The notes under the pieces are model-generated. The model worked only from the letters and a program-made list of their open reading frames with translations. It did not search any database and was not told where the DNA came from. From a bacterium (GTDB taxonomy: Bacteria > Sysuimicrobiota > Sysuimicrobiia > Sysuimicrobiales > Segetimicrobiaceae), in assembly GCA_035691305.1 (NCBI GenBank), contig DASSJF010000061.1, positions 1,329-65,328 on the forward strand: a DNA stretch of 64,000 nucleotides, in the 5' to 3' direction. A program made the position numbers and the translations under genes. This document shows, in pieces, positions 21,426-61,271 of the stretch (position 1 is the stretch's first letter; every line of letters starts with the position of its first letter).

Positions 21426-21449
21426 CCGTCAGAAGAGGGAGGCAGGGCG

Positions 21450-22334
<885 letters not shown>

Positions 22335-22339
22335 ATCTC

Positions 22340-34306: not shown

Positions 34307-34397
34307 GCGGCGCGTATTGCGGCCGGCGCCCAAGCCGGCAGGAGGTTCAGGTGCGAGACGGCCGGTCGGCGCTTTGGGGTCCCGCCCCTCCATCGCC

Positions 34398-35384: not shown

Positions 35385-35390
35385 GGGCCC

Positions 35391-36697: not shown

Positions 36698-36760
36698 CGG
36701 CGTTGGCGTAGAGGTCCGGCACTGAAAGGAAGCGGTGAAACCGAGAAGGGAGATGGCACA

Positions 36761-37672
36761 ATGATGAAGTGGAGATCCGGAGTTTTCCTGGGACAACTGC
36801 TGGCGGTGCTCGTGATCGGCGCGTTGATGATCGCCATCGTGCCGGGCATCAGCCCGGGCGCGGCGGCGGGCAAACCCCACCTCACCGTGGGCGGCAAGAA
36901 CGACACCGAGGCGCAGCTGCTGACCAAGCTGTACGTGCTGCTGCTCCGCAAAGCGGGGTTCGACGTCACCGAAAAAGCGAAGCTCGGCACCAACGACATC
37001 GTCCACAACGCGATCACAAGCGGCCAGATCGACCTGTACCCCGAGTTTACGGCGACGGGACTGGCGCGCCTCAAGCTCAAGACCACGCACAACGACCAGA
37101 AGGATTACGAGATTGTGAAGGCCGGCTACCAAAAGCAGTTCCACATCACGTGGCTCGCGATGTCGCCGCTGAACGATACCTACGGGATCTGCACGACGCA
37201 GGCGAAGGCCGGCAAGCTCGGGACGAAGATCAGCCAACTGGCCGAGACGGCGCCGAAGCTCACGGTGGCGTCGCCGCCCGACGGCACGAGCGATCCGAAC
37301 GTGCTTCCCGGGATGAAGGCGGCGTACGGCTTCACGTTTGGGAAGACCGTCGTCCTCGACGAGTCGCTGACCTTCACCGCCGTCCAGCAGGGCCGGGCCG
37401 ATGTGAACGTGTGCTACACGACGATCGCCCTGATCCCGAAGAACCACTTTGTCCTGCTCGACGACGACAAGAATCTGTTCCCGATCTATCATCCGGCGCC
37501 GATCGTGCGCGACGATACCCTGAGCAAAGCGCCCGGCATCGCAACCGCGCTTGATCCGCTGGCCCCGAAGCTGACCACGGAGGTCAGCCAGCGGCTGCAA
37601 CTCGAGGTCGTGAACGGCTCGTCGGTAACCAACACCGCGACGAACTGGCTCAAGAGCATCGGGATGCTCTGA
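36761..37672 (+). CDS. Osmoprotectant (glycine betaine/choline/carnitine) ABC substrate-binding protein (OpuAC-fold)
   Basis: Signal/TM anchor, then 'GKNDTEAQLLTKLYVLLLRKAGFDV' and 'QIDLYPEFTATG', which are typical of OpuCC/OpuBC-type binding proteins. Confidence 0.8.
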   Translation: MMKWRSGVFLGQLLAVLVIGALMIAIVPGISPGAAAGKPHLTVGGKNDTEAQLLTKLYVLLLRKAGFDVTEKAKLGTNDIVHNAITSGQIDLYPEFTATGLARLKLKTTHNDQKDYEIVKAGYQKQFHITWLAMSPLNDTYGICTTQAKAGKLGTKISQLAETAPKLTVASPPDGTSDPNVLPGMKAAYGFTFGKTVVLDESLTFTAVQQGRADVNVCYTTIALIPKNHFVLLDDDKNLFPIYHPAPIVRDDTLSKAPGIATALDPLAPKLTTEVSQRLQLEVVNGSSVTNTATNWLKSIGML

Positions 37673-37682: not shown

Positions 37683-38450
37683 ATGCGCCTGGCCGACAAG
37701 ATCTGCCTGATCACCGGCGCCGGTTCGGGAATCGGCCGCGCGAGCGCGCTCTTGTTCGCGCGCGAGGGCGGCGCGGTGCTCGTGGCGGACGTGGACGGGC
37801 AGGCGGGCGAACGGGTGGCCGCCGAGATCGCCGGGTCCGGCGGCCGGGCCCTCGCCGTCCGCACCGATGTGACGGATCAGGCGCAGTGCGAGCGCGCCGT
37901 CGGGCTGGCCCTCGAGCGGTGGGGCCGGCTCGACGTGCTCTTCAACAACGCCGGGATCGGCGCCGTCGGCAGCGCGCACGACGAGCCGCTCGAGCAATGG
38001 GACCGCGTGATGAACGTCAACGTCCGCGGCGTGTTTCTGATGTGCCGGGCGGCCCTGCCGCCGATGATGGAACGGCGCGGCGGCTCGATCATCAACATGT
38101 CCTCGGCGATCGCCCATACGGGGCTTGCGCGCCGGATGTCCTACGCCGCGTCCAAGGGCGCGGTGCTGGCGTTGACGCGGTGCATGCAGGTCGATTACGC
38201 GCCGTACCACATCCGGGTCAACGCGCTCATGCCCGGCACGATCCACACGCCGCTGGTGGAGCGGTACCTGCGGGCGAATTACCCGGATTACGAGAAAGGC
38301 CTCGCCGATGTCCGCGCGCGCCAGCTGACCGGAGACCTGGGTGCCCCGGAGGAGGTGGCGGCGGCGGCGTTGTTCCTCGCCGGCGACGAGTCGCGGCTCG
38401 TCATGGGCGCCGGGCTGATCGTCGACGGCGGGCTGACCGCCGGGCGCTGA
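37683..38450 (+). CDS. SDR-family oxidoreductase
   Basis: 'KICLITGAGSGIGRASA', 'NNAGI' and 'YAASKGAV'. Confidence 0.85.
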   Translation: MRLADKICLITGAGSGIGRASALLFAREGGAVLVADVDGQAGERVAAEIAGSGGRALAVRTDVTDQAQCERAVGLALERWGRLDVLFNNAGIGAVGSAHDEPLEQWDRVMNVNVRGVFLMCRAALPPMMERRGGSIINMSSAIAHTGLARRMSYAASKGAVLALTRCMQVDYAPYHIRVNALMPGTIHTPLVERYLRANYPDYEKGLADVRARQLTGDLGAPEEVAAAALFLAGDESRLVMGAGLIVDGGLTAGR

Positions 38451-38530
38451 GCGCGGCGCGGGATGAATCGCCCCCCGCGGCCCCGAAGCGAGCGGTAGAC
38501 AACGCAATCTCCCCCGGAGGTGCCGCGGCC

Positions 38531-39340
38531 ATGGGCAAGTATCGTCTGCAGGACATGTCGTGGGTGGAAGCTCAGGAGGCGTTCCGCCGGTCGGATACGG
38601 TGATCTTTCCGGTCGGTACGCTGCACGGCCACGGCCCGAGTCCAATCGGCATCGACGCGATCTCCGTCGACGCGATCGCCGACCGCGTCGGCAGGCAGAC
38701 CGGCATGATGGTCCTGCCGACGCTCGTCTACGGCGAAGACGACAAGATGCGCGACTACCCGGGATCGCTCGCGATCAGCCAGAGCACGATGGAGGCGTTC
38801 TGCACGGACATCTTCCGCAGCCTCCACCATAACGGCGTGCGCAAGGTGATCGCGTTGAACGGCCACGGCGGCAACCGCGAGCCGCTCGTCCGTGCGGGCC
38901 GCAACGTCCGCGAACTCGACATGCTGGTCCCGATCGTCGAGTGGTGGAACATCACGAAACGCCTCCAGCCCGACCTGTGCACGGACGGCACGCACATCGT
39001 CGAGCTGGCCGTCGCGCTCGCCGCCGGCGGCACCGAGGTCGCCGACATCCGGAGCGGCGGCTACAAGGGAGAGTGGGGGACGCAGCCCCCGCTTCGAAAG
39101 GTGTTCGGCGAGGCGATCAAGCCGCTCGGGTTCAACAACTTCGAGTTCGGCGGCGCGCCGGTGATCATCCCCGTGGACGCCTGGGACATCGATATCGCAA
39201 GCCCGCCGGAAGTGAACAAGAACGATCTCGAGGCGCTGCGCCGCCGCGGCGAGCAGATCATCGACCGGGCGGTCGAGTACGTGATCGCGTTTGCCGCGGA
39301 ACTTCATAAAGTGGACGTGGCCAGGGCCCTCAAGCAGTAA
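38531..39340 (+). CDS. Creatininase-family amidohydrolase (creatinine amidohydrolase / MftE-like)
   Basis: 'DTVIFPVGTLHGHG' and 'MVLPTLVYGED' are creatininase-fold metal-ligand motifs. The ATG is internal to the 484-aa tracked ORF. Confidence 0.75.
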   Translation: MGKYRLQDMSWVEAQEAFRRSDTVIFPVGTLHGHGPSPIGIDAISVDAIADRVGRQTGMMVLPTLVYGEDDKMRDYPGSLAISQSTMEAFCTDIFRSLHHNGVRKVIALNGHGGNREPLVRAGRNVRELDMLVPIVEWWNITKRLQPDLCTDGTHIVELAVALAAGGTEVADIRSGGYKGEWGTQPPLRKVFGEAIKPLGFNNFEFGGAPVIIPVDAWDIDIASPPEVNKNDLEALRRRGEQIIDRAVEYVIAFAAELHKVDVARALKQ

Positions 39341-41627: not shown

Positions 41628-43025
41628 CTACGCCCTCAGGCCGGCGGCGTCCGACCGGCCGAGCTCGTCCAGAAAGCGCACGTAGGCACGCGTGCCGCGG
41701 TCGAACGTCCCGAGGCGCAGAAACTCGTTCGGCGCGTGGACGAGATTGTCGGGCTCGCCGAAGGCGAAGAACACGAGCCAGGTCCCCAGTTCGCGCTTCA
41801 CCAGATCGGCGACCGGCAGCGTGCCGCCGACGCGGACGCGCACCGGCTCCCTGCCGTAGGTCGCCTGGAGCGCCTTCGCCGCCGCCGTCAGCGCCGGATG
41901 GTCCGACGGCATGAGGTACGGGCGCGACTTGCCCTTGGAGCGCGTCACGGTCAGCGTTACGCCGGCGGGGGCGTGGCGGCGCACGTGCTGCTCCACCAGC
42001 TCCGCGATCTGATCCGGATCCTGGTCGGGGACCAGGCGGCATGTGATCTTGGCGTGCGCCTCGTTCGGCAGGACGGTCTTGCTGCCGTCGCCCTGAAAGC
42101 CGCCCCACATGCCGTTGACCTCCAGCGTCGGCCGGATCCAGGTGCGTTCGAGCGGCGTGTAATCCGGTTCTCCGATGAACTGCGCGATGCCGAGTTCGCG
42201 GCGCTGCCCCGCTTCGTCGAACGGCACGCGCGCCAGCTCCCGGCGCTCGGCCGCGCTGAGCGTCCGGACCGCGTCGTAGAAGCCGGCGACCGTCACCCGG
42301 TTCTGAGCGTCGTGCATCCCGGCGAGCAGCGCCGCCAGCGTGTGGAGCGGGTTCGCAACCGCGCCGCCGTAGGTGCCGGAGTGCAGGTCCGTGGACGCGC
42401 CGCGGATGTCGATCTGCAGCCCCGTCAGGCCCCGGTTGCCGAGCGCGAGGGACGGCGTCTCCACGTCCCACTGCCCGCCGTCCGCGCTGACCGTGACGTC
42501 CGCGGCGAGCAGTTCCCGCTGATCGTGCAGGAAGGGCGCGAGGTTCGGGCTGCCGGTCTCTTCCTCGCCCTCGAAGATGAACTTGAGGTTGATCGGGGGA
42601 CCGCCGGTCACGCTGCGAACCGCCTCGAGTGCCAGGAGTGGGATGAAGAGGCTGCCCTTATCATCGCTCGCGCCGCGGGCGACGAGCCGGCCGTCCCGGA
42701 CCGCGGGTTCGAAGGGCGGCGTCTGCCAGAGCGCCACCGGATCGACCGGCTGTACGTCGTAGTGCCCGTAGAGGAGAATCGTCGGCGCGCCGGGCCGCAC
42801 GGGCCACGCGCCGTATACGACGGGGCTGCCGGCCGTCGGCATCACGCGCACCTCGGGCACGCCCGTCGCCCGCAGGCGCGCCGCCAGCCATTCGGCCGCC
42901 CGCACGATGTCCGGCCGGTGCGCGGGCAGGGCGCTCACGCTCGGAATCCGGAGGAACTCCTGCAGTTCGCCAAGGTGCCGCTCGCGCTGCCGGCTGAGAT
43001 AGGCGTCCGCCGCCGCGTAGTCCAC
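41628..43025 (-). CDS. M20-family dipeptidase (ArgE/DapE/CPG2 superfamily)
   Basis: 'LQEFLRIPSVSALPAHRPD', 'LLYGHYDVQPVDP', 'GASDDKGSLF' and 'FIFEGEEETGSPNL' are M20 metal-binding motifs. The start is at a GTG overlapping/adjacent to the S9 peptidase stop. The 896-aa tracked ORF's N-terminal half is an out-of-frame artefact. Confidence 0.85.
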   Translation of the reverse strand: MDYAAADAYLSRQRERHLGELQEFLRIPSVSALPAHRPDIVRAAEWLAARLRATGVPEVRVMPTAGSPVVYGAWPVRPGAPTILLYGHYDVQPVDPVALWQTPPFEPAVRDGRLVARGASDDKGSLFIPLLALEAVRSVTGGPPINLKFIFEGEEETGSPNLAPFLHDQRELLAADVTVSADGGQWDVETPSLALGNRGLTGLQIDIRGASTDLHSGTYGGAVANPLHTLAALLAGMHDAQNRVTVAGFYDAVRTLSAAERRELARVPFDEAGQRRELGIAQFIGEPDYTPLERTWIRPTLEVNGMWGGFQGDGSKTVLPNEAHAKITCRLVPDQDPDQIAELVEQHVRRHAPAGVTLTVTRSKGKSRPYLMPSDHPALTAAAKALQATYGREPVRVRVGGTLPVADLVKRELGTWLVFFAFGEPDNLVHAPNEFLRLGTFDRGTRAYVRFLDELGRSDAAGLRA

Positions 43026-43030
43026 TGTGC

Positions 43031-45034
43031 TCACCCCTTTGCCTCGCGCGCGCCCACCGGCGCGCCGAGATGCGTGGAGAACCAGCCGAGCAGGTGCGTC
43101 ATCTCCTCCGTGCGATGCCGCGGCTGCCCGGACGACGACATGCCGTGGCTCTCGCCCGGGAAGCGCACCATGAGCGTCGGCGTGCCCTGGCGCTTGAGCG
43201 CCAGGAACAGCTGCTCTGCCTGCTCGACCGAGCAGCGGTAGTCGTTCTCGCCGTGCAGGATCAGGAGCGGCGTTTTCATCTGCCGCACGTATGCGATCGG
43301 GGAGCGCTCGAGGTAGAATTCCGGCGACTCCCAGGGCGCGCCGGGGAACTCCCACCGCGCGCCGAGATACGCGATGTCGCCGGTGCCGAAGTGGTTGTAG
43401 CGGTTGCAGGTGCTGCGCAGCGTCACGCCGGCCCGAAACCGTTGTGTGTGGCCGAGAATCCAGTTGGTCATGTAGCCGCCGTAACTGCCGCCGCAGACGC
43501 CGAGCCGCTCGGGATCGATCCACTCGTGAACGGCCAGCGCCCGGTCGAGCGCGCCCATCAGGTCCTCGTAGTCGCCGCCGCCCCAGTCGTGGTGCGTGGC
43601 GGCGAGAAACGCTTGCCCGTAGCCGTGGCTGCCCCGCGGGTTCACGTACACGACGCCGTAGCCCGCGGCGCACAGCAGCTGGAACTGATTCGAGAAGGCG
43701 TGCCCGTAGGCGCCGTGCGGTCCGCCGTGGATTTCGAGCACCGCGGGTACCCGGCGGCCGGACGCGGCCGCCGCCGGTTTCAGTACCCAGCCGTCGAAGA
43801 CGTATCCGTCCGGCGTCTTGTACTCGAACCGCTCTGGACGGACGAGCGAGAGCGCCTCGGCGATCGGCGCGTTCCACGCCGTGAGACGCCGGAACGCCGC
43901 CGGCCGTCCGCTGCCGAGGTCGGCGACCGCGAGCTCCCCGGGCGTCAGCGGGTCGGCCTCGACGCACGCCACCCGCCGCGCGGCGGCGTCGAGCGAGCAG
44001 CCGACGAGGTCGTGCTCGCCGGCCGTCTCGAGCCGTACCGTGCCGCCGTCCGCTCCCACCGAGGCGACTTGGCAGTCGCCGCGCTCCGTCGCGAGAAAGT
44101 AGAGCCGGTCGCCGCGGGGCGACCACGTCACCCCGCCCATGCCGGGCTGCGAACGGACGTCGCTTCCGATGTGGTGCCCGATGCTGCCCTCGTACCCGCG
44201 CGTCAGGCAGACCGGCGCGCCGCCGTCGGGCGTCGCGACCCATACCTGTGAGAGCGTGGCCCCGCCGCATGCGCTGTCGTGCCCGAGATAGGCGATCGAC
44301 CGTCCGTCCGAGGACCACGCCGGGGACTCGACCGCGCCGATCCGCTGCGTCAGGCGGCGCGGCGAGCCGGTCCCGTCGGCCCGGATGATCCAGAGGTCGG
44401 TGCGCTCGTCGAGGTCGGCGTCCGGGGAGTTGTCGCCGGCGTAGGCGAGCAGCGCGCCGTCCGGCGACCAGGCGGGGCCCGTATGATCATAGTCACCCTT
44501 GGTCACCTGCCGCGCCTCGCCGCCCGAGGCGGCGACGACGAAGATCTGCTTCCATCGGCCGTCCCAAAAGCCTTCGCCGTCCTGTTTGTAGTGAAGCCGG
44601 GAAATGACGCGGACGTCGCTTTGCTCGCCGCGTGCCGCCGGCTCGGGCTTGCCCGTAAACGCCAGCGACTTGCCGTCCGGCGACCACGCGAACTCAGACG
44701 GCGCGAGCGCCCCGGCCGTCGCCGCCCGAGCCTCTCCGCCGTCCACGGTGATGACCCAGATCTGTTTCGAGCCGCCGCGGTCCGAGAGGAAGGCCACCCG
44801 GCTGCCATCCGGCGACCAGCGCGGGCCGGTGTCCCGGGCGCGGGCCGTGGTGAGTTGGCGCGGTGGGTGGCTGCTGTCGACGATCCAGAGATGCGTCTGG
44901 TAGCCGTTCGCGGGTTCGTCGACGATCGTCAGCGGACAGACGGTGCGGGTGCCGTCGGGGGACAATGCGGGCGGCCCCGCGATCTTCCACTTTAGAATGT
45001 CGTCGACGGCGATCGGACGTCTTGGCGTGGGCAA
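43031..45034 (-). CDS. S9-family serine peptidase (acylaminoacyl-peptidase-like) with an N-terminal beta-propeller
   Basis: TolB/WD40-like repeats ('SPDG', 'WSPDG') and the C-terminal catalytic 'GGSYGGYMT'. TTG start at 45034 with a GGGGGAGGAGGA Shine-Dalgarno; the tracked ORF's first 134 aa overlaps YceI and is rejected. Confidence 0.85.
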   Translation of the reverse strand: MPTPRRPIAVDDILKWKIAGPPALSPDGTRTVCPLTIVDEPANGYQTHLWIVDSSHPPRQLTTARARDTGPRWSPDGSRVAFLSDRGGSKQIWVITVDGGEARAATAGALAPSEFAWSPDGKSLAFTGKPEPAARGEQSDVRVISRLHYKQDGEGFWDGRWKQIFVVAASGGEARQVTKGDYDHTGPAWSPDGALLAYAGDNSPDADLDERTDLWIIRADGTGSPRRLTQRIGAVESPAWSSDGRSIAYLGHDSACGGATLSQVWVATPDGGAPVCLTRGYEGSIGHHIGSDVRSQPGMGGVTWSPRGDRLYFLATERGDCQVASVGADGGTVRLETAGEHDLVGCSLDAAARRVACVEADPLTPGELAVADLGSGRPAAFRRLTAWNAPIAEALSLVRPERFEYKTPDGYVFDGWVLKPAAAASGRRVPAVLEIHGGPHGAYGHAFSNQFQLLCAAGYGVVYVNPRGSHGYGQAFLAATHHDWGGGDYEDLMGALDRALAVHEWIDPERLGVCGGSYGGYMTNWILGHTQRFRAGVTLRSTCNRYNHFGTGDIAYLGARWEFPGAPWESPEFYLERSPIAYVRQMKTPLLILHGENDYRCSVEQAEQLFLALKRQGTPTLMVRFPGESHGMSSSGQPRHRTEEMTHLLGWFSTHLGAPVGAREAKG

Positions 45035-45126
45035 CGGATCCTCCTCCCCCGGGGCCGGCCGCGAGACCGGCCCGCGGAGATGAGGATACGCTTCAACGAC
45101 GGCGGTCTGGGCGCCTTGGGCGCGGG

Positions 45127-45801
45127 CTAGGCGCCGAACGGATGCGCGGTGAACTGAAACTCCAGCAGCGCTTTGTCCTCGGTCTGCAGCATCATGATGC
45201 TCGGCGGATTGAATCCGAAGTCCTTCATCAGCACGGTCGACTGCATCGTGCCGGTGAGCGTGTCGCCGGACAGCTTCAGCGTCCCGGTAAACGTCGCCGG
45301 TTTCGTCGTGTTGTGAACGGTGAGGTTGCCGGCGATCTTCACGGGGACCGTCTGCCCGGCGGCGTAGGTCTTCGGCAGTCCTTCGATGGAGGTCGGGACG
45401 AACGTCGCCGTCGGGTACGCGTTCGACTCCAGCCAATGGGTCCGAATCGCGTTGTCGCGGTGGCTGTTGTCCGACGTGAACTGATTGACGTCGACGGTGA
45501 TCGTTCCGATGCGGCTCTGTTCGGGATGCGCGCGGTCGACGTACACGTCGCCCTGGATGCCGTGCGTCACGCCCACCGCGACCTGGAATGTGTTGTCGCG
45601 GAAGAGCGTCTCGCCGACGTGATACGAGGCTTCCGACGCCCGCGGATCGATGACGAAGTGCTGCGCGTTCGCCGAGCCCGGCGCCGGCGCAGCGGCGGCG
45701 AGCGTGTGCGCGACCGGCGCGGTGCCCCCGGTCGCCTGCCAGAACGCGGCCGCGGCGACCAGCGTGATCCCCGCAATCACCGCGGCAATCCGTTTGTGCA
45801 T
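45127..45801 (-). CDS. YceI-family periplasmic (polyisoprenoid-binding) protein
   Basis: Signal peptide 'MHKRIAAVIAGITLVAAAAF', and the YceI-like beta-barrel motifs 'FVIDPRASEASYHV' and 'VTHG'. Confidence 0.75.
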   Translation of the reverse strand: MHKRIAAVIAGITLVAAAAFWQATGGTAPVAHTLAAAAPAPGSANAQHFVIDPRASEASYHVGETLFRDNTFQVAVGVTHGIQGDVYVDRAHPEQSRIGTITVDVNQFTSDNSHRDNAIRTHWLESNAYPTATFVPTSIEGLPKTYAAGQTVPVKIAGNLTVHNTTKPATFTGTLKLSGDTLTGTMQSTVLMKDFGFNPPSIMMLQTEDKALLEFQFTAHPFGA

Positions 45802-54851: not shown

Positions 54852-55382
54852 ATGGGACCCTTCGCGGGCTGGGACAACTTCTATGTCATCGTCGGGTCGG
54901 CCGCCGGCGCGCTGATCGGATTGCAGTTCGTCGTCATGACGCTCATTGCCGACACGCCGGTCGCGTCGGCGCAGGCCGGCAGCGCGTTTGCGACACCGAC
55001 CATCATGCACTTCGCGGCCGCGCTGCTGCTCTCGGCCGGTTTGAGCGCTCCGTGGCCGGGGAGCGGCGCCGCGGCGCTGTTCTTGGGACTCGTCGGCCTC
55101 GGTGGGCTTGGCTATTCCGGCATCGTGTGCCGGCGCATGCGGGCGCAGACGTCATATCGCCCGGACTATGAGGACTGGGCGTTCCATGCCGTGCTTCCTA
55201 TTGTCGCCTACGCGTTGCTGACCGCATCGGCGTACGCGGCCGGCGCTCACGTCCGCGAGGCCCCGTTCGGCGTCGCGACGGCGGTGCTGGTGTTGTTGTT
55301 CATCGGGATCCATAATGCCTGGGACGCGGTCACGTGGCACGTCTTTGTAACAAGACGCCGGCACGGCGGGCGCGGAACATGA
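54852..55382 (+). CDS. Hypothetical integral membrane protein
   Basis: Four predicted TM helices. Coding-like GC3. No recognised motif. Confidence 0.5.
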   Translation: MGPFAGWDNFYVIVGSAAGALIGLQFVVMTLIADTPVASAQAGSAFATPTIMHFAAALLLSAGLSAPWPGSGAAALFLGLVGLGGLGYSGIVCRRMRAQTSYRPDYEDWAFHAVLPIVAYALLTASAYAAGAHVREAPFGVATAVLVLLFIGIHNAWDAVTWHVFVTRRRHGGRGT

Positions 55383-55537
55383 GCATCACACGCGTCAATC
55401 GGTGCGAAGCGAAGCCGGGCAAGGGACCGGAGCTGCGCCGGTTCCTGCGATAGCGGCCGAGTCGCCGGCAGCGGGGAGTCCGGCGGGCGGGAGAGAAGAC
55501 TCGAAAGACCCTCGCTACCGCGCCGAACACAGGGGGA

Positions 55538-56005
55538 GTGCGTCTGTCACGTAAAATCCGGATCTCTTTGCCGGGCGACGACATCTCCGCGATCGCCGAC
55601 CTTCTCGACGAGGACTGCCCCGACACCTGCGAGGCGATCTGGCGCCTCTTGCCGCTGCGCGTGAAGGCGATTCACGACATTTGGTCCGGGCATCTGGTGT
55701 TGGCCCACCTCGACAACAAGTTCGTGCTGCCGCCCGAAAACGTCCTCACCTACCTGCCCGTTCCGGGCGACATCTTCTATTACTACAGGCCCGCGCACTA
55801 CTTCCGGGGCTCGCCCTACGGGCGAGCCGAATCGGCGGAGATCGGCATCGTCTACGACCGGGACACGCGGCCGCAGGGGCCGCGGGGCCCGGAAGCCGTC
55901 AACCTCTTTGCGAACATCTCCGCCGGTCTGGAAGGCTTCGCGGAGGCGTGCGAAGACATGATCTACCGCGGCCAAAAAGACCTCCTCATCGAGAAATTGG
56001 GGTGA
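55538..56005 (+). CDS. Small cyclophilin-like protein, probable DUF3830 family (paralog 1)
   Basis: 'LLDEDCPDTCEAIWRLLPLRVKAIHDIWSGH' and 'PGDIFYYY' fit the DUF3830 pattern as remembered: acidic .D..P.TC.A.W..LPL...A.H..WSG, then .PGD..Y. Not verified against the family model. Confidence 0.55.
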   Translation: MRLSRKIRISLPGDDISAIADLLDEDCPDTCEAIWRLLPLRVKAIHDIWSGHLVLAHLDNKFVLPPENVLTYLPVPGDIFYYYRPAHYFRGSPYGRAESAEIGIVYDRDTRPQGPRGPEAVNLFANISAGLEGFAEACEDMIYRGQKDLLIEKLG

Positions 56006-56010
56006 CCGGG

Positions 56011-56520
56011 ATGAGGAAGCTGCTCTTCGAGTTGAGCGGAACGAGCGCCGTCGCCGAGATGCACGACGACGTCGTGCCGAAGACCTGCGACGCCGTCTGG
56101 AACGCGCTGCCGCTGGAAGGGATGGCGATCCACGCCAACTGGTCGAGCCGCGAGATCATGCTGCATCTTCACGGCGAGAAGATCCTTCGACTGCCCCCCG
56201 AAGGGCCGGCCCGGCGCGGCACCACCGCACCCGGTGACATCGTGTACTTCTGGCGATCCCCCCGGATGTCGCGCGGCAAGCAGCTGGCCTACAGCGCGGA
56301 GTTCCAGCGGGAGCTGTCCGAGCTCGCCATCTTCTACGGCGACCCCGCCGCCGGAGGCCGGGCCGCGGACGACCCGGCGCGCAGCGGCCGGGACTCGATC
56401 CTTCAAGTTTCCACGCTCTTCGCCGCGTTCATCGACATCCCCAAGGCCTTCGCGCGGAAGTGCGAAGCGATCCGCCATCACGGCCTGCAGAAGCTCGTCG
56501 TGAGGAGACTCGACCAATGA
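56011..56520 (+). CDS. Small cyclophilin-like protein, probable DUF3830 family (paralog 2)
   Basis: 'MHDDVVPKTCDAVWNALPLEGMAIHANWSSRE' and 'PGDIVYFW' are clearly paralogous to the preceding gene. The ATG is internal to a longer tracked ORF. Confidence 0.55.
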   Translation: MRKLLFELSGTSAVAEMHDDVVPKTCDAVWNALPLEGMAIHANWSSREIMLHLHGEKILRLPPEGPARRGTTAPGDIVYFWRSPRMSRGKQLAYSAEFQRELSELAIFYGDPAAGGRAADDPARSGRDSILQVSTLFAAFIDIPKAFARKCEAIRHHGLQKLVVRRLDQ

Positions 56521-56966
56521 CGCGGGTGAAAATCACGCTGGGAAGCGTCGAGGCGTTCGCGGAACTGGCCGAGCAGGACGCGCCCGAGAGCGCGAAATGG
56601 CTCAAGAAGATGCTTCCGATCGAGGCGCAGGCGATCCACAGCATGGAGAACGGCCGCGAAGTTTACGCCGTGCTCGATACTCCCGGCCGCGTCCCGGAAG
56701 AGAATCAGACGATCTACCAGACCGTCGGTGATCTGTTCCTGTACTACAAACCGGCCATCTTCGTCGAACCCGAGTGGCCCAGGCACGTCCGCGACGTGCT
56801 CGTCATCGGCTTCATCTACGAGCGTGACAGCGCGGTACGGGGCATCGACGGCCCGCTCGCGACGAATCTCGTCGGGAGGATCACCGAGGGGATCGACGCC
56901 CTCGCGCACGAGGCCCCGCGGATGCGTCGCGAAGGCATGGGGAAGATGCGCCTCAGCCTCGCCTAG
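56517..56966 (+). CDS. Small cyclophilin-like protein, probable DUF3830 family (paralog 3)
   Basis: 'LAEQDAPESAKWLKKMLPIEAQAIHSMENGRE' and 'VGDLFLYY'. The ATG overlaps the upstream stop as 'ATGA'. Confidence 0.55.
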   Translation: MTRVKITLGSVEAFAELAEQDAPESAKWLKKMLPIEAQAIHSMENGREVYAVLDTPGRVPEENQTIYQTVGDLFLYYKPAIFVEPEWPRHVRDVLVIGFIYERDSAVRGIDGPLATNLVGRITEGIDALAHEAPRMRREGMGKMRLSLA

Positions 56967-56970
56967 TCCG

Positions 56971-58002
56971 ATGGTCAGGTTTGGACTCGGCATGGCGCCG
57001 GTGGAGCCGCTGAAGAAAGTCGTTTCGGTGGCGAGACTGGCCGAGGAACTCGGCTTCGAACACTTCGTCCACGCCGATCAGCGATTTTCGGGTGAGAAGG
57101 ACGTCTTCGTGACGCTCGCCGCCGACGCTCTGAGCACCACGACGATCAAGCTCGGACCGTGCGTGTCCGATCCGTACTGCCGGATCCCGGCGATGCTCGC
57201 CACCGCCGTCGCGAGCCTCGACGAACTTTCGGGCGGGCGGGCCCTCCTTGCCCTGGGCGCCGGCGGATCCGGATTCGCGGAGATGCACCTCGAGCGGAAG
57301 CATGTCAACGAGGCCCTCCGCGAAACGATCACCATGGTGCGGGGGCTGTTCAGCGGTGAAGCGGTCAACTTCGACGGCCGGCTGTTCAAGCTCACCAACG
57401 CCCGCCTGCGGTTTGAAGTGCGGCCGGACATCCCGATTCTCATCGCGAGCAGAAGTCCGCTGAACCTCGAGCTCGCGGGCGAGATCGCGGACGGCGCGAT
57501 CATCGCGACCTACGTGTCGAAGGCGCAGCTGGCGTTCGCGATCGAGCGGGTGCGGGCCGGAGCCTGGAAGGCGCGCCGGCGCCTGGAGGACGTCCGGCTG
57601 ATTTCGTGGGTCTACACCTCGATCTCCGACGACGGACGGCAGGCCGTGGAGAACGTCAGGCCGTTCGTAACGCAGGCGCTGGTGAATACCTCCCCGGAGG
57701 CCTACCCCGCCATCCTCGAGGGCTTTGACGAAGCCCTGCCGCCCTTCCTCGTGCAGTGCCGGGAGCGGGGACGGGCGGGGCTGGAGGCGGCGTACCGGGA
57801 CCGGCGGTATCTCACCGACGAGGTCATCAAGCGGTTCTCGGTCGCGGGCACGGCCGAGGATTGCATCAAAAAAATCGAAGAGATCAGGTCCTTCGGCATC
57901 GACGAGATCTGGTTGCGGTGCTTTTCCGCTCCGCGGTCCGAGGTGGAGCACGAGAAAGTGATCGTGCCGTTCGCCGAAAAAGTGATGCCGAGGTTCAGGT
58001 AG
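56971..58002 (+). CDS. LLM-class (luciferase-like) flavin/F420-dependent oxidoreductase
   Basis: 'FGLGMAPVEPLKKVVSVARLAEELGFEHFVHADQ' TIM-barrel N-terminus and 'LALGAGGSGF'. The ATG lies 5 bp after the third paralog. Confidence 0.8.
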   Translation: MVRFGLGMAPVEPLKKVVSVARLAEELGFEHFVHADQRFSGEKDVFVTLAADALSTTTIKLGPCVSDPYCRIPAMLATAVASLDELSGGRALLALGAGGSGFAEMHLERKHVNEALRETITMVRGLFSGEAVNFDGRLFKLTNARLRFEVRPDIPILIASRSPLNLELAGEIADGAIIATYVSKAQLAFAIERVRAGAWKARRRLEDVRLISWVYTSISDDGRQAVENVRPFVTQALVNTSPEAYPAILEGFDEALPPFLVQCRERGRAGLEAAYRDRRYLTDEVIKRFSVAGTAEDCIKKIEEIRSFGIDEIWLRCFSAPRSEVEHEKVIVPFAEKVMPRFR

Positions 58003-58765
58003 CCGCGTCGACCCGCATCGCATGCATCTCCAGGAGTTTCGCGCGGACCTTGTTGGCCGCGGCGACGAATTCGACGTGGGAGCGCATCGCCGGATCTCTG
58101 GCGGGCGGCAGGCGCACCGGCACTTCTTCGACGATCTCGCCCGGCCTGGGCGACATGACGAGGATCCGATCGGAGAGGAAAACCGCTTCCTCGATGTCGT
58201 GGGTCACGAGCAGGGCGGTGGCGCGGAGCGTTCGGATCAGGGTGCCCAGCTCGGTCTGCAGGGCCTCTTTGGTCAGTTCGTCTACGCCGGTAAACGGCTC
58301 GTCCATCAGGGCGATCGACGGCTCGTGCACGAAGGCGCGCGCGATCGAGACCCGCCGCTGCATGCCGCCGGACAGTTCGATCGGATAACTCCGCTCGAAC
58401 CCCTTCATGCCGACCATGCCGATCAGCCGGTCGACGGTCCCCAAATCCTGTTTCTTGACGACCTCCAGCGGCAGCTTGACGTTGTCGTAGACGGTCCTCC
58501 ACCGCATCAGGCTCGAATCCTGGAAGACGTACCCGACGACGAACTGCCCGCCGGCCGTCTCCCGGCGGATGCTCCCGCTTCCGGGCTGCTCGACCCCCGC
58601 GATCAGGCGGAGGAGCGTGCTCTTACCGCACCCGCTCGGTCCGACAATCGCGACGGTCTCGCCCGTGCGCACCGACAGGGAGACGTCCTTGACCGCCTGG
58701 ACCTCGTTCCCCTTGACGGTCGTGTAGTGTTTGCTGACGTGCTCCAGGACGACGACGGAGTTCAT
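57995..58765 (-). CDS. ABC transporter ATP-binding protein, NitT/TauT (nitrate/sulfonate/bicarbonate) family
   Basis: Walker A 'GPSGCGKSTLLR', 'LSGGMQRRVSIARA' and 'ALMDEPFTGVD'. Confidence 0.85.
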   Translation of the reverse strand: MNSVVVLEHVSKHYTTVKGNEVQAVKDVSLSVRTGETVAIVGPSGCGKSTLLRLIAGVEQPGSGSIRRETAGGQFVVGYVFQDSSLMRWRTVYDNVKLPLEVVKKQDLGTVDRLIGMVGMKGFERSYPIELSGGMQRRVSIARAFVHEPSIALMDEPFTGVDELTKEALQTELGTLIRTLRATALLVTHDIEEAVFLSDRILVMSPRPGEIVEEVPVRLPPARDPAMRSHVEFVAAANKVRAKLLEMHAMRVDAAT

Positions 58766-58768
58766 GTC

Positions 58769-59554
58769 CTAACTCGACCGGTACCACGGCATGAGCTGCC
58801 GCGCGAGCACCACGACGATGCCGTACAGCAGCAGGCCCAGCGCCGTCAGGATGGTGAACGCGCCGAACGCCGCCACGGTGTTGAACGTATACTGCGAGTT
58901 CAGAATGAGGAAGCCGAGGCCCGCGTTGGAGCTGACGAACTCCGCGACGATCGCGCCGACCAGGGCGCCCGACACGCCGATCTTCAGTCCGTCGAAGAAG
59001 TACGGAAGGGAATTGGGGAGCCGCACCTTGTAGAAGATCGTCGCCCTGCCGGCGCGGAGCGACTGCAGGAGGTAGATCAGGTTGCGATCGACGTCGGTCA
59101 GGCCGGTGCTCACGTTGATGACGATCGGAAAGAACGTGAGGATCACGATCAGCAGGATCCTCGACGTGTTGGTGAAGCCCAGCAGTATGTAGATGATCGG
59201 CGCGATCGCCACCTTCGGCAGTACCTGAAGCGCCACGATGTACGGCATGAGGATCTTGCTCAGGATCGGCGAGAGCGTGATCACGAGGGCGATCGCAAAA
59301 CCCACGACGATGCCGATTACGGAGCCCGTGACGGCCTCGTTCAGGGTGATCAGCGTCTGCTGCAGCCAGTTGACGTGGCCGGTGAAGAAGACTTGCGCGA
59401 TCGCCAAGGGCGACGGGAACAGGTACGCCGGGATTCGCAACAGCTGCACCACGAGCTGCCACAGGACGATGCCGGCGACGAAAGAGAGAATCGGCAGGCC
59501 GTAGTCGGCCAGCCCCGGCAGGCCAAGTTTTCTCGGGCTGCCGATCGGCGCCAC
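58769..59554 (-). CDS. ABC transporter permease, NitT/TauT family
   Basis: BPD_transp_1 protein with six TM segments. Confidence 0.8.
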   Translation of the reverse strand: MAPIGSPRKLGLPGLADYGLPILSFVAGIVLWQLVVQLLRIPAYLFPSPLAIAQVFFTGHVNWLQQTLITLNEAVTGSVIGIVVGFAIALVITLSPILSKILMPYIVALQVLPKVAIAPIIYILLGFTNTSRILLIVILTFFPIVINVSTGLTDVDRNLIYLLQSLRAGRATIFYKVRLPNSLPYFFDGLKIGVSGALVGAIVAEFVSSNAGLGFLILNSQYTFNTVAAFGAFTILTALGLLLYGIVVVLARQLMPWYRSS

Positions 59555-59566
59555 GCCCCAGGCCCG

Positions 59567-60607
59567 CTACGGGTGCTCGGCGAACCGGTTCGTGTAGAGG
59601 GTTGTCGGGCTGAAGGCCTTCTCGATCTTGAACATCGCCTTGAGCTCCGGAAGCGTCGCCGCGACGAGCTGTGGATCGAACCACCCCAGCTGGAGCGGCT
59701 TCATCTTCCGGACCGTCCCGGCGTCCAGCCCGTACTGCGCCTTGAGCGCGACCTTCCACTCCGCCAGCGTCTGATCGTAGTCACGGCCCGGATTCTTGGC
59801 GATGAAGTCTTTGATGCATTGATCCGGCTTGACCACGCACAAGTAAAGCCCTTCGTTGAGCGCGGCGGCGATCGCCCCCGCGGTCCCCGGATTCCTGTCC
59901 ACGAGGCCCTTCTGGACCACCACGGCGCCCAGCGGCGAAGGCATGTGGTAATCGCCGAACAGGAACGATCCGATCTGCTGGCCCTGCTGCTTCGCGACGA
60001 TGTCGAGGCTGGCCAGGCCCCGCGCGAACTCGCAGATGGCGTCGACCCGCTTCTGCATCAGCGCCGGATGGAGCGCGCCGAAGCCGATGTTCTGAATCCT
60101 CACCTTGTCCTTGGCGATCCCCTGCTTCTGGAGGAAGATGTCGAGGTACTGTTCGGACAGGCTGCCGGTCGGGACCCCGATCGTCTTGCCGGCCAGGTCG
60201 CGGGGGGACTTAATGCCGCTCGACTGCAAGAAGATCAGGGCCACCGGATTCCTCGGCTCGTTCCCGGCGATGCCGATGAGCGGGGGCGCGCTGGGGTTCT
60301 TGTCGGCCAGCAGCATCTCGTCCAGGATATCTCCCTGCACGAAGGCGCGGCCCGTCCGGTCGGCCGCGACGGCCTGGACGGCCTGGGAGGTGCCCTCCAG
60401 GATTACGAAGTTCACCCTGAGGTTGTGCTTGGCGAAGATTCCCTCCGCGTCCGCGGCAAAGTCCTGAGGCGCACTGCTGGTAATCCCGCCGACGTAGTCG
60501 TTCACCGTCAGGGGCGTCCCGGGACTCGAGAAGACGGTGCCGTAGGCGGCGGCGACGCCGACGGCAATCACGAGGACCGCGGTCACGGCTCTGAGAACAC
60601 GAGGCAT
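59567..60607 (-). CDS. ABC transporter substrate-binding protein, NMT1/THI5-like (SsuA/TauA/ThiY-type)
   Basis: Signal peptide and a periplasmic-binding type-2 fold. Adjacent to the NitT/TauT permease and ATPase. Confidence 0.75.
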   Translation of the reverse strand: MPRVLRAVTAVLVIAVGVAAAYGTVFSSPGTPLTVNDYVGGITSSAPQDFAADAEGIFAKHNLRVNFVILEGTSQAVQAVAADRTGRAFVQGDILDEMLLADKNPSAPPLIGIAGNEPRNPVALIFLQSSGIKSPRDLAGKTIGVPTGSLSEQYLDIFLQKQGIAKDKVRIQNIGFGALHPALMQKRVDAICEFARGLASLDIVAKQQGQQIGSFLFGDYHMPSPLGAVVVQKGLVDRNPGTAGAIAAALNEGLYLCVVKPDQCIKDFIAKNPGRDYDQTLAEWKVALKAQYGLDAGTVRKMKPLQLGWFDPQLVAATLPELKAMFKIEKAFSPTTLYTNRFAEHP

Positions 60608-60845
60608 CCCATTCCTCCTCTGTTTCCCGGGCCCAGGGAAGGCGGCGGGTTGCGGGCGTCTGGGGTCGGCTCTCGATTCCAGGGGAACCCGCCCCTATCC
60701 TTGCGAGGCGTGATCGCGAACTTGGGGAGATACAGTACCGGGTTCGGCACTCTGCCCGGGGTGCGCCGAGCCGTGGTCGATCGAGTCACCTTTCAGGCCG
60801 AGCTCGACGCACGCCCCGTAGCCTGATGCGTGGAGGGAAGAACCC

Positions 60846-61271
60846 ATGAAATCCGCCTCGGCACAAATCGACGAAAGGATCAAGACGCTGGGGGACTGGC
60901 GCGGGAAGACGCTCGCAAAAGTGCGCGAGCTGATCCATGAGGCGGCCCCCGAGATCGTCGAGGAGTGGAAATGGGTGAAACCCACGAACCCTGGGATCCC
61001 GGTCTGGTCCCATAACGGCGGTATTTGTACGGGCGAGACCTACAAGCACGCGGTCAAGCTGACGTTCTTCAGGGGGGCGGCGTTGAATGATCCTTCACGT
61101 TTATTCAACTCCAGCCTGGAGGGCGGTGTTCGGCGCGCCATCGACATCCACGAAGGGGACAAGCTCAATGAGGGGGCCTTGAAGGCTCTTATCCGCGCCG
61201 CGGTGGCCCTCAATCTCCGGGGCGCGAACAAGCCGGATCGCCGGCGAACCAACGGCAGGCGAGCCCGCTAG
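60846..61271 (+). CDS. DUF1801-domain protein (YdhG-like)
   Basis: 'WRGKTLAKVRELIHEAAPEIVEEWKWVKP...GICTGETYKHAVKLTFFRGA' is a DUF1801-type sequence. Confidence 0.6.
   Translation: MKSASAQIDERIKTLGDWRGKTLAKVRELIHEAAPEIVEEWKWVKPTNPGIPVWSHNGGICTGETYKHAVKLTFFRGAALNDPSRLFNSSLEGGVRRAIDIHEGDKLNEGALKALIRAAVALNLRGANKPDRRRTNGRRAR

What the first reader, a model, noticed from the sequence alone, without database searches (positions are those of the whole stretch)
55538..58002. Three tandem, translationally coupled cyclophilin-like (probable DUF3830) paralogs fused into an operon with an LLM flavin oxidoreductase, convergent with a NitT/TauT ABC importer
Three small paralogs of 155-169 aa share an acidic motif (LLDED.P.TC.A.W..LPL...AIH..WSG) and a PGD.(F/V)YY motif. 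They lie head-to-tail with 5 bp and ATGA spacing, followed 5 bp later by a luciferase-like monooxygenase/oxidoreductase. Ending opposite them is a sulfonate/nitrate/taurine-type ABC transporter (SBP, permease, ATPase). No function is established for this small-protein family. Triplication next to a flavin/F420 enzyme suggests substrate-presenting, chaperone-like or multimeric partner subunits in an uncharacterised oxidative pathway, possibly acting on the imported organosulfur or heteroaromatic substrate.
Basis: partly seen in the sequence, partly recalled or inferred. Interest (0 to 1): 0.7.

Follow-up and report, generated by a model that had tools for sequence, protein, structure and literature searches.

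The report
Three Pictet-Spenglerase-like proteins with F420-type reductase
Three tightly linked small genes of an uncharacterised family (DUF3830), which I find to be related to the catalytic barrel of opine- and alkaloid-forming Pictet-Spenglerases, always travel with a Mer-like (probably F420-dependent) oxidoreductase and usually with an uptake transporter; this is probably an undescribed pathway for breaking down an imported nitrogen compound in uncultured soil and sponge bacteria.

Summary
Window 55538-58002 (+) carries three DUF3830 paralogs: A (155 aa), B (169 aa) and C (149 aa), only 30-35% identical to each other. They are spaced by 5 bp, an ATGA overlap and 4 bp, followed by a luciferase-like (LLM) gene. 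A NitT/TauT-type ABC importer is convergent.

The order A-B-C-LLM is kept in all 20 related loci found. These are MAGs labelled Bacillota, Limnocylindria, Dormibacteraeota and Acidimicrobiia. Orthologs are 62-92% identical. About half the loci carry a D-aminoacylase homolog between C and LLM.

Three new points:
- Such barrel proteins also sit in cucumopine catabolic clusters beside ABC importers.
- The LLM is closest to F420-dependent Mer. It has invariant Gly at Mer's catalytic Glu6 and at Asp96, so it is not Mer.

Best reading (confidence 0.4): a hetero-oligomeric C-N (imine/iminium) handling component works with an F420-type hydride transferase on an imported amino-acid-derived compound. 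The organosulfur reading is not supported. The LLM link is specific to this clade, not to the whole family.

The parts
55383..55537 (+). Intergenic leader and probable promoter region upstream of A
   Evidence: 155 bp without an ORF. No Rfam match at E<=1 and no sigma-70 consensus hit. Similar only in the closest genomes, L008 and L009.
55538..56005 (+). DUF3830 paralog A (155 aa). Signatures: HDIWSGH, PENVLTY, PGDIFYYYRP, DTRPQGPRG.
56011..56520 (+). DUF3830 paralog B (169 aa), with its own insertions (SPQMSRGKQLAYS, DDPAR)
   Evidence: PF12903 at 60.2 bits. About 35% identical to A. Orthologs 67-92% identical, and 73 of 169 positions invariant.
56517..56966 (+). DUF3830 paralog C (149 aa). 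Its start overlaps the stop of B (ATGA).
   Evidence: PF12903 at 76.5 bits, plus weak Cyclophil_like and Cyclophil_like2 hits. Orthologs 65-87% identical, and 65 of 149 positions invariant.
56971..58002 (+). Mer-like luciferase-like oxidoreductase (343 aa), probably an F420-dependent hydride transferase, not a true Mer
   Evidence: PF00296 at 187.5 bits. The best NCBIfam hits are Mer at 180 and 176.6 bits, below the cut-offs of 276 and 348.7, and the next 15 hits are also F420-named LLM families. PDB 1Z69 at E 1.5e-45. Mer Glu6 aligns to Gly7 and Asp96 to Gly99, both invariant in 19 orthologs.
57995..58765 (-). ABC transporter ATPase (NitT/TauT type), convergent. Its stop overlaps the LLM stop by 8 bp.
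   Evidence: PF00005. Best NCBIfam hits are SaoA, taurine and nitrate-type ATPases, all below their cut-offs. Orthologous copy (67-89% identity) convergent in 13 of the 20 distinct loci (window included), and fragmentary in L021.
58769..59554 (-). ABC transporter permease
   Evidence: PF00528. Best hits are SaoP/SsuC/NtrB-like, all below their cut-offs.
59567..60607 (-). NMT1/THI5-type substrate-binding protein with an N-terminal signal or anchor. Ligand unknown.
   Evidence: PF09084 at 89.1 bits. SsuA_fam scores 45.9 against a cut-off of 163.5, and the taurine model 26.8 against 304. The best solved relative is ThiY (formylaminopyrimidine-binding, 3IX1) at only E 1e-7.

Best explanation
This is a conserved, horizontally mobile module for using an imported nitrogen compound. 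The compound is most likely an amino-acid-derived conjugate: opine-like, N-substituted, or a cyclic amine or imine.

Shown:
- A, B and C are ancient paralogs of one beta-barrel family.
- That family is homologous to the catalytic barrel of Pictet-Spenglerases.
- The three always occur 1:1:1, in one order, translationally coupled, together with one Mer-like LLM.
- The LLM lacks Mer's pterin-handling residues.
- An ABC importer accompanies the module almost everywhere.

Inferred:
- A, B and C assemble into a hetero-oligomer whose barrels bind an alpha-amino-acid-like moiety and make or break a C-N (imine, iminium or aminal) bond.
- The LLM uses F420/F420H2 to transfer a hydride to or from that C=N. 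This is the same chemistry Mer performs on the iminium form of methylene-H4MPT.
- The direction is catabolic. The conjugate is imported, the C-N bond is oxidised to an imine or iminium, and this is cleaved to an amine plus a carbonyl compound.
- In sister lineages a D-aminoacylase-type hydrolase in the operon first removes an acyl group. DHDPS-type aldolase, RidA, aminotransferase or DAO enzymes then take the products onward.

The substrate is not identified.
For: Module conservation:
- The order A-B-C-(amidohydrolase)-LLM is identical in all 20 distinct loci.
- Orthology is one-to-one: A 62-88%, B 67-92%, C 65-87%, LLM 74-89% identity. The paralogs stay at about 30% to each other.
- 39-49% of positions are invariant across MAGs labelled as different phyla.

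Homology to catalytic barrels:
- The DUF3830 profile hits McbB by sequence at E 8e-7.
- hhalign against Pictet-Spenglerase barrels gives 97.7% probability and E 2e-12 over 118 columns.
- The family's most conserved motif, H-x-x-x-S-G, lines up with the H-A-(M/V)-V-S-G loop. The backbone amides of that loop hold the Trp carboxylate in AsKslB.

Precedent for catabolic use:
- On pRi2659, on the T-DNA-less catabolic plasmid pAtAg67, on pTiAg57 and on a Paraburkholderia symbiosis plasmid, Pictet-Spenglerase-like genes lie between an ABC importer and the hut genes. PGAP annotates some of these genes as DUF3830.
- Cucumopine is a His plus 2-oxoglutarate Pictet-Spengler adduct (PMC12536604).

Hetero-oligomer:
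- Natural fusions of two different DUF3830 domains exist.
- McbB and KslB are homodimers whose partner subunit completes the active site.
- 3KOP has 6 chains in the crystal.

LLM:
- It aligns over its full length with Mer.
- All best NCBIfam hits are F420 families.
- F420 LLHTs are known to reduce endocyclic imines (Fps/Apd6; PMC8498797).
- F420 is made by Actinobacteria and Chloroflexi (same review).

Context theme around DUF3830 genes generally: a transporter, a C-N hydrolase, a C-N oxidoreductase, an aminotransferase or RidA, and a GntR or IclR regulator.
Against: - No biochemical data exist for any stand-alone DUF3830 protein.
- The Pictet-Spenglerase catalytic Glu (McbB E97, KslB E274) aligns to Arg111 in A, Arg124 in B and Ala106 in C.
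- The helical-bundle domain PF18631, which completes the Pictet-Spenglerase active site, is absent. Catalysis, if any, must therefore differ.
- F420 dependence rests on homology only. No NCBIfam F420 family cut-off is reached. No F420 biosynthesis gene was seen among the roughly 40 window proteins I annotated, and the rest of the genome was not available.
- The hetero-oligomer is not modelled or measured.
- Neither the SBP nor the neighbours give the substrate. The window's own version lacks the D-aminoacylase, DHDPS and RidA genes.
- The direction of the pathway, catabolic or biosynthetic, is inferred from the importer and the neighbours only.
Confidence: 0.4

Rival explanations
1. Accessory-subunit model. 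A, B and C are non-catalytic partners that scaffold, present substrate to, or stabilise the LLM enzyme. The LLM alone does the chemistry.
For: - The Pictet-Spenglerase catalytic Glu is not conserved and the helical domain is absent.
- The proteins are small.
- In this clade they never occur without the LLM.
Against: - Other DUF3830 clades work without any LLM, next to amidase, DAO or M20 enzymes. The fold therefore has a function of its own.
- His46 and Glu67 are nearly invariant across the family, and the carboxylate-binding-loop motif is retained. This points to a small-molecule site.
- Mer and other solved LLM hydride transferases are described without such partner subunits. jMer is a homodimer.
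Confidence: 0.2
2. Biosynthetic model. A, B and C condense an amine with a carbonyl compound and the LLM reduces the imine, making an opine-like secondary amine, for example a metallophore or signal. The ABC system re-imports the product.
For: - All characterised relatives (McbB, KslB, StnK2, cucumopine and mikimopine synthases) are synthases.
- F420H2-dependent LLHTs reduce imines in antibiotic biosynthesis.
- Opine-type metallophore operons pair a synthase with an importer (my own knowledge, not tested here).
Against: - No exporter, NRPS, PKS or other biosynthetic genes recur near the module.
- The recurrent neighbours are catabolic: D-aminoacylase, DHDPS-type aldolase, RidA, aminotransferase, DAO, isochorismatase-type hydrolase, and GntR or IclR regulators.
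- Related barrel proteins sit in opine catabolic regions.
Confidence: 0.12
3. Sulfonate, taurine or organosulfur utilisation. The LLM would be an SsuD-like FMNH2-dependent monooxygenase fed by an Ssu/Tau-type importer.
For: The transporter belongs to the NitT/TauT class. LLM enzymes of the SsuD type are often next to such transporters (general knowledge).
Against: - SsuD models score 47.6-49.8 bits against cut-offs of 510-518.
- SfnG scores 38 bits against a cut-off of 383.
- SsuA_fam scores 45.9 against 163.5, and the taurine SBP model 26.8 against 304.
- No flavin reductase (SsuE/Fre type) was seen among the called neighbours.
- The closest solved relatives are F420 enzymes.
Confidence: 0.03
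4. The LLM is a genuine methylene-tetrahydromethanopterin (or methylene-tetrahydrofolate) reductase of C1 metabolism, and the DUF3830 genes are unrelated neighbours.
For: Mer is the best match by far (E 1.5e-45) and aligns over the full length.
Against: - The catalytic Glu6 is Gly and the pterin-contacting Asp96 is Gly, invariantly in 19 orthologs.
- Scores are below both Mer equivalog cut-offs.
- No C1-pathway genes are in the window or in related loci.
- The strict co-linearity with A, B and C argues against chance neighbourhood.
Confidence: 0.02

Closest known systems
Pictet-Spenglerases of the McbB / KslB / StnK2 / cucumopine-mikimopine synthase family (beta-barrel plus PF18631 helical bundle)
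   Same: - Shared features include the N-terminal strand, the ..P..C..(W)..LP helix motif, the His-x-x-x-Ser-Gly loop, the (G)D strand and the ..YG strand.
- These proteins also work as oligomers, and some also sit next to ABC importers in catabolic clusters.
   Different: - A, B and C have no helical-bundle domain.
- The catalytic Glu is replaced: Arg in A and B, Ala in C.
- DUF3830 has its own near-invariant Glu67, where most of the Pictet-Spenglerase-like barrels aligned here have Arg, Val or another residue; only the Nonomuraea homolog has Glu there.
- Here there are three distinct paralogs rather than a homodimer, and they are coupled to a redox enzyme. Pictet-Spenglerases need no cofactor.
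3KOP (Arthrobacter sp. FB24 protein of unknown function), the structural representative of DUF3830
   Different: Single copy, in cultured Actinomycetes. It is coupled to an amidase and sits beside Asp/Glu-racemase-like, RidA, M20, M24/creatinase-like, aminotransferase and GntR genes. There is no LLM.
Mer, the F420-dependent methylene-H4MPT reductase (1Z69, 8QPM)
   Same: - Same TIM-barrel LLM fold, aligned over the full length at E 1e-42 to 1e-45.
[quoted passage not shown]
- The expected chemistry is hydride transfer to an iminium carbon.
   Different: - Glu6 (proton donor) and Asp96 (pterin contact) are both Gly.
- Scores are below the equivalog cut-offs.
- The setting is bacterial and non-methanogenic.
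- It is always encoded with three barrel proteins.
F420H2-dependent LLHT imine reductases (Fps/Apd6: LmbY, TomJ and similar)
   Same: They are luciferase-like hydride transferases that reduce a C=N bond in an amino-acid-derived ring (PMC8498797). This is the kind of reaction proposed here.
   Different: They are biosynthetic, from Streptomyces, and have no DUF3830 partners. I did not make a direct sequence comparison because no sequence was at hand.
Opine catabolic systems of Agrobacterium (ABC importer, FAD opine oxidase, amino-acid catabolic genes)
   Same: The logic is the same: import a conjugate, oxidise or cleave the C-N bond, and feed the parts into central metabolism. DAO-family oxidoreductases are coupled to DUF3830 in Caballeronia, and one is convergent to the module in Dormibacteraeota.
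   Different: Here the redox partner is a Mer-like LLM rather than an FAD oxidase. The importer is of the NitT/TauT type. The hosts are uncultured soil and sponge lineages.

Membership tests
Pfam PF12903 (DUF3830) | Score at or above the gathering threshold (26 bits) | tested here: met
   A 87.8, B 60.2 and C 76.5 bits.
Pfam PF12903 (DUF3830) | Fold of the family's solved member, 3KOP (a cyclophilin-like beta-barrel) | tested here: met
   [not shown]
Cyclophilin-type peptidyl-prolyl isomerases | Match to the cyclophilin PPIase sequence family | tested here: not met
   [not shown]
McbB/KslB/cucumopine-synthase Pictet-Spenglerases | Homologous beta-barrel domain | tested here: met
   [not shown]
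McbB/KslB/cucumopine-synthase Pictet-Spenglerases | Cucumopine_C helical-bundle domain (PF18631) | tested here: not met
   No PF18631 hit. A, B and C are 149-169 aa single-domain proteins. The plasmid homologs do have the domain.
McbB/KslB/cucumopine-synthase Pictet-Spenglerases | Catalytic glutamate (McbB Glu97, KslB Glu274, AsKslB Glu276) | tested here: not met
   hhalign puts the T-E-P glutamate opposite T110-R111-P112 of A. By alignment A1 this corresponds to Arg124 in B and Ala106 in C. Acidic residues exist nearby in the same loop, so the loop alignment leaves some doubt.
Bacterial luciferase-like (LLM) superfamily, PF00296 | Pfam gathering score | tested here: met
   187.5 bits against a threshold of 27.9.
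Mer (F420-dependent methylene-H4MPT reductase) | NCBIfam equivalog cut-offs (TIGR03555 348.7; NF002619 276) | tested here: not met
   176.6 and 180 bits.
Mer (F420-dependent methylene-H4MPT reductase) | Catalytic Glu6 and pterin-contacting Asp96 (jMer numbering; PMC11094777) | tested here: not met
   The residues align to Gly7 and Gly99. Both are invariant in 19 orthologs.
F420-dependent luciferase-like hydride transferases (LLHT) | Uses F420: binding residues and the cis-peptide backstop in the protein, and F420 biosynthesis in the host | tested here: inconclusive
   The 17 best NCBIfam hits are all F420 LLM families, but none reaches its cut-off. The G-P-G-V cis-peptide site is G-P-C-V, invariant. 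Host F420 genes could not be searched.
SsuD/MsuD alkanesulfonate monooxygenases | NCBIfam cut-offs (TIGR03565 518.2; NF001939 510) | tested here: not met
   49.8 and 47.6 bits.
NitT/TauT-family ABC importers | NMT1-type SBP plus a BPD_transp_1 permease plus an ABC ATPase in one operon | tested here: met
   PF09084 at 89.1 bits, PF00528 at 83.1 bits and PF00005 at 110.4 bits.
Sulfonate, taurine or nitrate specific transporters | Substrate-specific NCBIfam models | tested here: not met
   SsuA_fam 45.9 against 163.5. Taurine SBP 26.8 against 304. NtrB 76.7 against 209. SsuC 82.4 against 347.

The most novel reading that the evidence does not exclude
A, B, C and the Mer-like LLM form a new type of multi-subunit, F420-dependent C-N oxidoreductase/lyase, in effect a 'retro-Pictet-Spenglerase' or opine-type cleavage system. 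The barrels hold an amino-acid-derived cyclic amine or secondary amine. The LLM abstracts a hydride to give an iminium ion. The barrels then open or hydrolyse it. This would give the DUF3830 family its first function and reveal an F420-linked route for alkaloid, opine or aldehyde-adduct catabolism in uncultured Chloroflexota, Dormibacterota and Acidimicrobiia.
Probability: 0.15. Interest if true: 0.75.

Novelty: new variant of a known kind. Interest (0 to 1): 0.55.

Why it matters
- DUF3830 has a solved structure (3KOP) but no function, and no paper in the searchable library mentions it.
- Linking it by sequence and fold to the catalytic barrel of Pictet-Spenglerases and opine synthases gives concrete, testable hypotheses: a binding site for an amino-acid-like ligand, and His46 and Glu67 as functional residues. 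So does seeing such barrels in catabolic clusters.
- The strictly conserved three-paralog set, together with a Mer-like enzyme that has lost Mer's pterin residues, suggests an undescribed multi-subunit F420 enzyme.
- The module occurs in lineages (Dormibacterota, Limnocylindria, sponge Acidimicrobiia) whose organic-nitrogen metabolism is largely unknown.
- It could also supply new imine-handling biocatalysts.

Tried and rejected
- Riboswitch or leader RNA that might name the ligand: no Rfam match at E<=1 in 55300-61000. The upstream DNA is conserved only among the closest genomes.
- Promoter and terminator scans were uninformative.
I obtained Pictet-Spenglerase-like sequences from plasmids instead.
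- Contexts of the distant representatives P0124 and P0125: the contigs were too short to help.
- My first two GC3-based gene callers mis-called antisense ORFs. I replaced them with tblastn against annotated reference proteins.
- Gln178 of jMer could not be placed reliably in my residue count, so I did not use it.
- Considered and rejected: a true Mer, SsuD-type desulfonation, and a cyclophilin PPIase (see rivals and membership tests).
- Taxonomy of the window: NCBI labels the source MAG only as 'bacterium'.
Full report
**1. The observation**

On the + strand the window carries four closely spaced ORFs:
- A: 55538-56005, 155 aa, GTG start.
- B: 56011-56520, 169 aa.
- C: 56517-56966, 149 aa.
- An LLM gene: 56971-58002, 343 aa.

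The gaps are 5 bp, an ATGA overlap and 4 bp. A, B and C each pass the Pfam gathering score for DUF3830 (87.8, 60.2 and 76.5 bits against 26). The fourth protein is a luciferase-like protein at 187.5 bits.

On the opposite strand lie an ABC ATPase (57995-58765), a permease (58769-59554) and an NMT1-type binding protein (59567-60607). The ATPase stop overlaps the LLM stop by 8 bp.

The only corrections are that C is 149 aa and that the last gap is 4 bp.

**2. Conservation**

A search with A found 217 clusters of close relatives (62-98% identity), almost all from metagenomes. A scan of one genome per species (185,579 species) found the gene in only 15. All are MAGs, labelled Bacillota (Centralia coal-fire soil), Candidatus Limnocylindria, Candidatus Dormibacteraeota, Actinomycetota/Acidimicrobiia (including sponge-associated Spongiisociaceae) or simply 'bacterium'.

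In every locus with enough sequence the order A-B-C-LLM is the same and orthology is one-to-one:
- A is 62-88% identical between loci.
- B is 67-92%.
- C is 65-87%.
- LLM is 74-89%.
- Any two paralogs remain about 30% identical.

Between 39% and 49% of positions are invariant in each protein, and each paralog has its own conserved loops. The triplication is therefore old, all three copies are under strong selection, and the module moves between phyla.

In ten of the distinct loci (L011, L015-L023; L024 repeats L023) a gene of roughly 490-534 aa, split into two calls in L022, sits between C and LLM. It is a close homolog of D-aminoacylase and N-acyl-D-glutamate deacylase (E 1e-86 to 1M7J).

The orthologous NitT/TauT-type transporter is convergent in most loci. 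In L007 the gene convergent to the LLM is a diverged NMT1_2-type binding protein, and homologs of it cluster in L009 and L012. The Dormibacteraeota loci have an amino-acid ABC system and L022 has a sugar-type one.

Recurrent further neighbours are:
- DHDPS-family aldolases;
- RidA;
- a class I/II aminotransferase with a GntR/FCD regulator;
- a DAO-family oxidoreductase;
- isochorismatase-type hydrolases;
- IclR.

The window has the minimal form. No D-aminoacylase, DHDPS or RidA homolog is present in its 64 kb.

**3. What the small proteins are**

The relation also shows at the sequence level. A profile of 100 diverse DUF3830 proteins hits McbB (3X27) at E 8e-7.

tblastn of A and of the McbB N-terminus against plasmids hits the same genes on Ri and Ti plasmids, which PGAP annotates as 'DUF3830 family protein'. 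I took six Pictet-Spenglerase-like barrel domains from those plasmids and from Nonomuraea. With these, hhalign gives 97.7% probability and E 2e-12 over 118 columns.

Several elements are shared:
- the first strand;
- the helix motif ..P..C..W..LP;
- the His-x-x-x-Ser-Gly loop;
- the (G)D strand;
- the ..YG strand;
- the C-terminal helix.

In AsKslB the backbone amides of Met225-Val226-Ser227 hold the carboxylate of L-Trp (PMC12547825). In the plasmid homologs this stretch reads H-A-V-V-S-G, and it aligns with H46-D47-I48-W49-S50-G51 of A. My placement of the AsKslB residues on this motif is an inference.

Two defining features of the Pictet-Spenglerases are missing:
- A, B and C have no Cucumopine_C helical bundle.
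- The catalytic Glu (McbB E97, KslB E274) aligns with Arg111 in A, Arg124 in B and Ala106 in C.

DUF3830 has its own near-invariant residues, notably His46 and Glu67 in A numbering. A, B and C are therefore relatives of the Pictet-Spenglerase barrel but not members of that enzyme family.

**4. Evidence that the fold is used in catabolism and in oligomers**

Two Pictet-Spenglerase-like genes with permuted domain order lie divergently on four plasmids:
- pRi2659, the cucumopine type;
- pAtAg67, an octopine/cucumopine catabolic plasmid that lacks T-DNA;
- pTiAg57, where the copy in McbB-like domain order is annotated only as two short hypothetical fragments;
- a Paraburkholderia symbiosis plasmid.

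In each case they sit between an ABC importer and the histidine-utilisation genes, with hydantoinase/oxoprolinase A and B nearby. Cucumopine is the Pictet-Spengler adduct of L-His and 2-oxoglutarate (PMC12536604). These genes are therefore placed as if they release histidine from the imported opine. That is an annotation-level inference, not a tested one.

Single-copy DUF3830 genes elsewhere are coupled to different partners:
- an amidase in the 3KOP clade (2052 hits in cultured Actinomycetes);
- a DAO-family oxidoreductase in Caballeronia;
- M20, ArgE and amidohydrolase genes with an NCS1 transporter in Halorientalis.

A transporter is encoded nearby in the Arthrobacter, Caballeronia, Halorientalis and Rhizobium examples; the Nonomuraea locus has only an ABC-2-type ATPase/permease pair. 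None of these has an LLM. The LLM link is thus specific to the trio clade. The wider theme is import plus C-N hydrolysis or oxidation of amino-acid-like compounds.

On oligomers:
- The family is small, with 674 clusters at 50% identity among 1.84 billion proteins.
- It contains natural fusions of two different DUF3830 domains: P0124, P0153, P0161, P0190, P0242, P0243 and P0245.
- McbB and KslB are homodimers in which the partner subunit completes the active site.

Together with the 1:1:1 coupling, this supports a hetero-oligomer of A, B and C. The assembly itself was not tested.

**5. The LLM**

Its best relatives are F420-dependent methylene-H4MPT reductases:
- PDB 1Z69 at E 1.5e-45 and 8QPM at E 2e-42, aligned over the full length.
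- Mer models at 180 and 176.6 bits. These are below the cut-offs of 276 and 348.7.
- The next 15 NCBIfam hits are other F420 LLM families. FMN families score 57 bits or less.

In jMer, Glu6 protonates methylene-H4MPT to the 5-iminium cation and Asp96 contacts the pterin (PMC11094777). These positions are Gly7 and Gly99 here, and both are invariant in 19 orthologs. [quoted passage not shown]

The enzyme is therefore a Mer-like hydride transferase that does not handle a pterin. F420 use is inferred from homology.

F420-dependent LLHTs that reduce endocyclic imines are known (Fps/Apd6), and F420 is made by Actinobacteria and Chloroflexi (PMC8498797). I could not check the host genomes for F420 biosynthesis. 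None of the roughly 40 window proteins I annotated is F420-related.

**6. Mechanism proposed**

Steps shown: paralogy, homology to a catalytic barrel, strict co-occurrence with a Mer-like LLM that lacks the pterin residues, and an importer nearby.

Steps inferred:
- A, B and C form a hetero-oligomer that binds an alpha-amino-acid-like moiety and makes or breaks a C-N bond.
- The LLM moves a hydride between F420 and that C=N.
- The direction is catabolic.
- In sister lineages a D-aminoacylase first removes an acyl group, and aldolase, RidA, aminotransferase or DAO enzymes finish the job.

I put this at 0.4. The substrate remains unknown. The SBP's best solved relative is ThiY at only E 1e-7, and it is far below the sulfonate, taurine and nitrate cut-offs.

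Rivals:
- Non-catalytic accessory subunits of the LLM: 0.2.
- A biosynthetic imine-forming and imine-reducing pair: 0.12.
- SsuD-type desulfonation: 0.03.
- A true Mer: 0.02.

**7. Novelty and interest**

The genes are already annotated in NCBI as 'DUF3830 family protein' on a 133-kb contig of an unclassified soil MAG. The family and its fold are known.

The following are not described in the searchable literature:
- the homology of stand-alone DUF3830 proteins to the Pictet-Spenglerase barrel, used as a functional lead;
- the presence of such barrels in opine catabolic clusters;
- the conserved three-paralog module with a Mer-like LLM.

I rate it a new variant of a known kind, with interest 0.55. 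It offers a well-defined, testable route to a first function for a structural-genomics orphan family, and possibly to a new multi-subunit F420 enzyme. There is no experimental anchor yet.

Noticed in passing
window 3456-19062: This is the chromosomal replication-origin region. It holds gyrA 3456-5894(-), gyrB 5908-7917(-), recF-like 8659-9783(-), dnaA 11320-12708(-), jag/KhpB 15069-16361(+), parA 17234-18214(+) and parB 18214-19062(+). GC falls to 0.588 at 10-12 kb against about 0.69 elsewhere. The DUF3830 module lies about 43 kb from dnaA.
   Followed up: partly
window 19059-22951: A MocR/PdxR-type GntR-aminotransferase fusion (19059-20600, -) is divergent from pdxS (SOR_SNZ, 21450-22334, +). 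An ORF at 22340-22951, probably pdxT, was not annotated.
   Followed up: no
window 55520-55560, compared with L003 and L006-L010: The window lacks about 27 nt present in the closest orthologs at the 5' end of gene A. This removes their 'SDQ...' N-terminal extension. The GTG start at 55538 now abuts the GGGGGAG that serves as the ribosome-binding site in the orthologs, so the true start of A in this genome is uncertain.
   Followed up: partly
L030 7672-9957 (pRi2659); L031 8650-10963 (pAtAg67); L033 7449-8420; L034 6648-8964: Cucumopine-type Ri, Ti and catabolic plasmids, and a Paraburkholderia symbiosis plasmid, carry two divergent Pictet-Spenglerase-like genes with permuted domain order. One is barrel plus Cucumopine_C and the other is Cucumopine_C plus barrel. 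They sit between an ABC importer and the hut genes, with hydantoinase A/B nearby. They look like catabolic (retro-Pictet-Spengler) enzymes, and one is still annotated 'hypothetical'.
   Followed up: partly
proteins P0140, P0155, P0172, P0205 (library representatives): An N-terminal DUF3830 domain is fused to a 150-270 aa C-terminal region with weak BNR/sialidase-like repeats. Six other 294-420 aa proteins have an unassigned C-terminal extension.
   Followed up: no
L035 6252-8779 (Caballeronia plasmid pSBC1_4): GntR, DUF3830 and a DAO-family FAD oxidoreductase are translationally coupled. They are divergent from a class V aminotransferase and a branched-chain-type ABC importer. This is a second case of DUF3830 paired with a C-N oxidoreductase, here a flavoenzyme instead of an LLM.
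   Followed up: partly
window 57995-58002: The stop codons of the LLM gene (+) and the ABC ATPase gene (-) overlap by 8 bp. The two convergent operons therefore have no room for an intergenic terminator.
   Followed up: no
window 37886-39340 and 41628-45436: A creatininase-domain protein has a long N-terminal extension (484 aa by my call). It lies downstream of a glycine-betaine-type ABC system (34317-37672). An M20 peptidase and an S9 prolyl-oligopeptidase-family protein are nearby. A creatininase gene also flanks the module in Dormibacteraeota.
   Followed up: no
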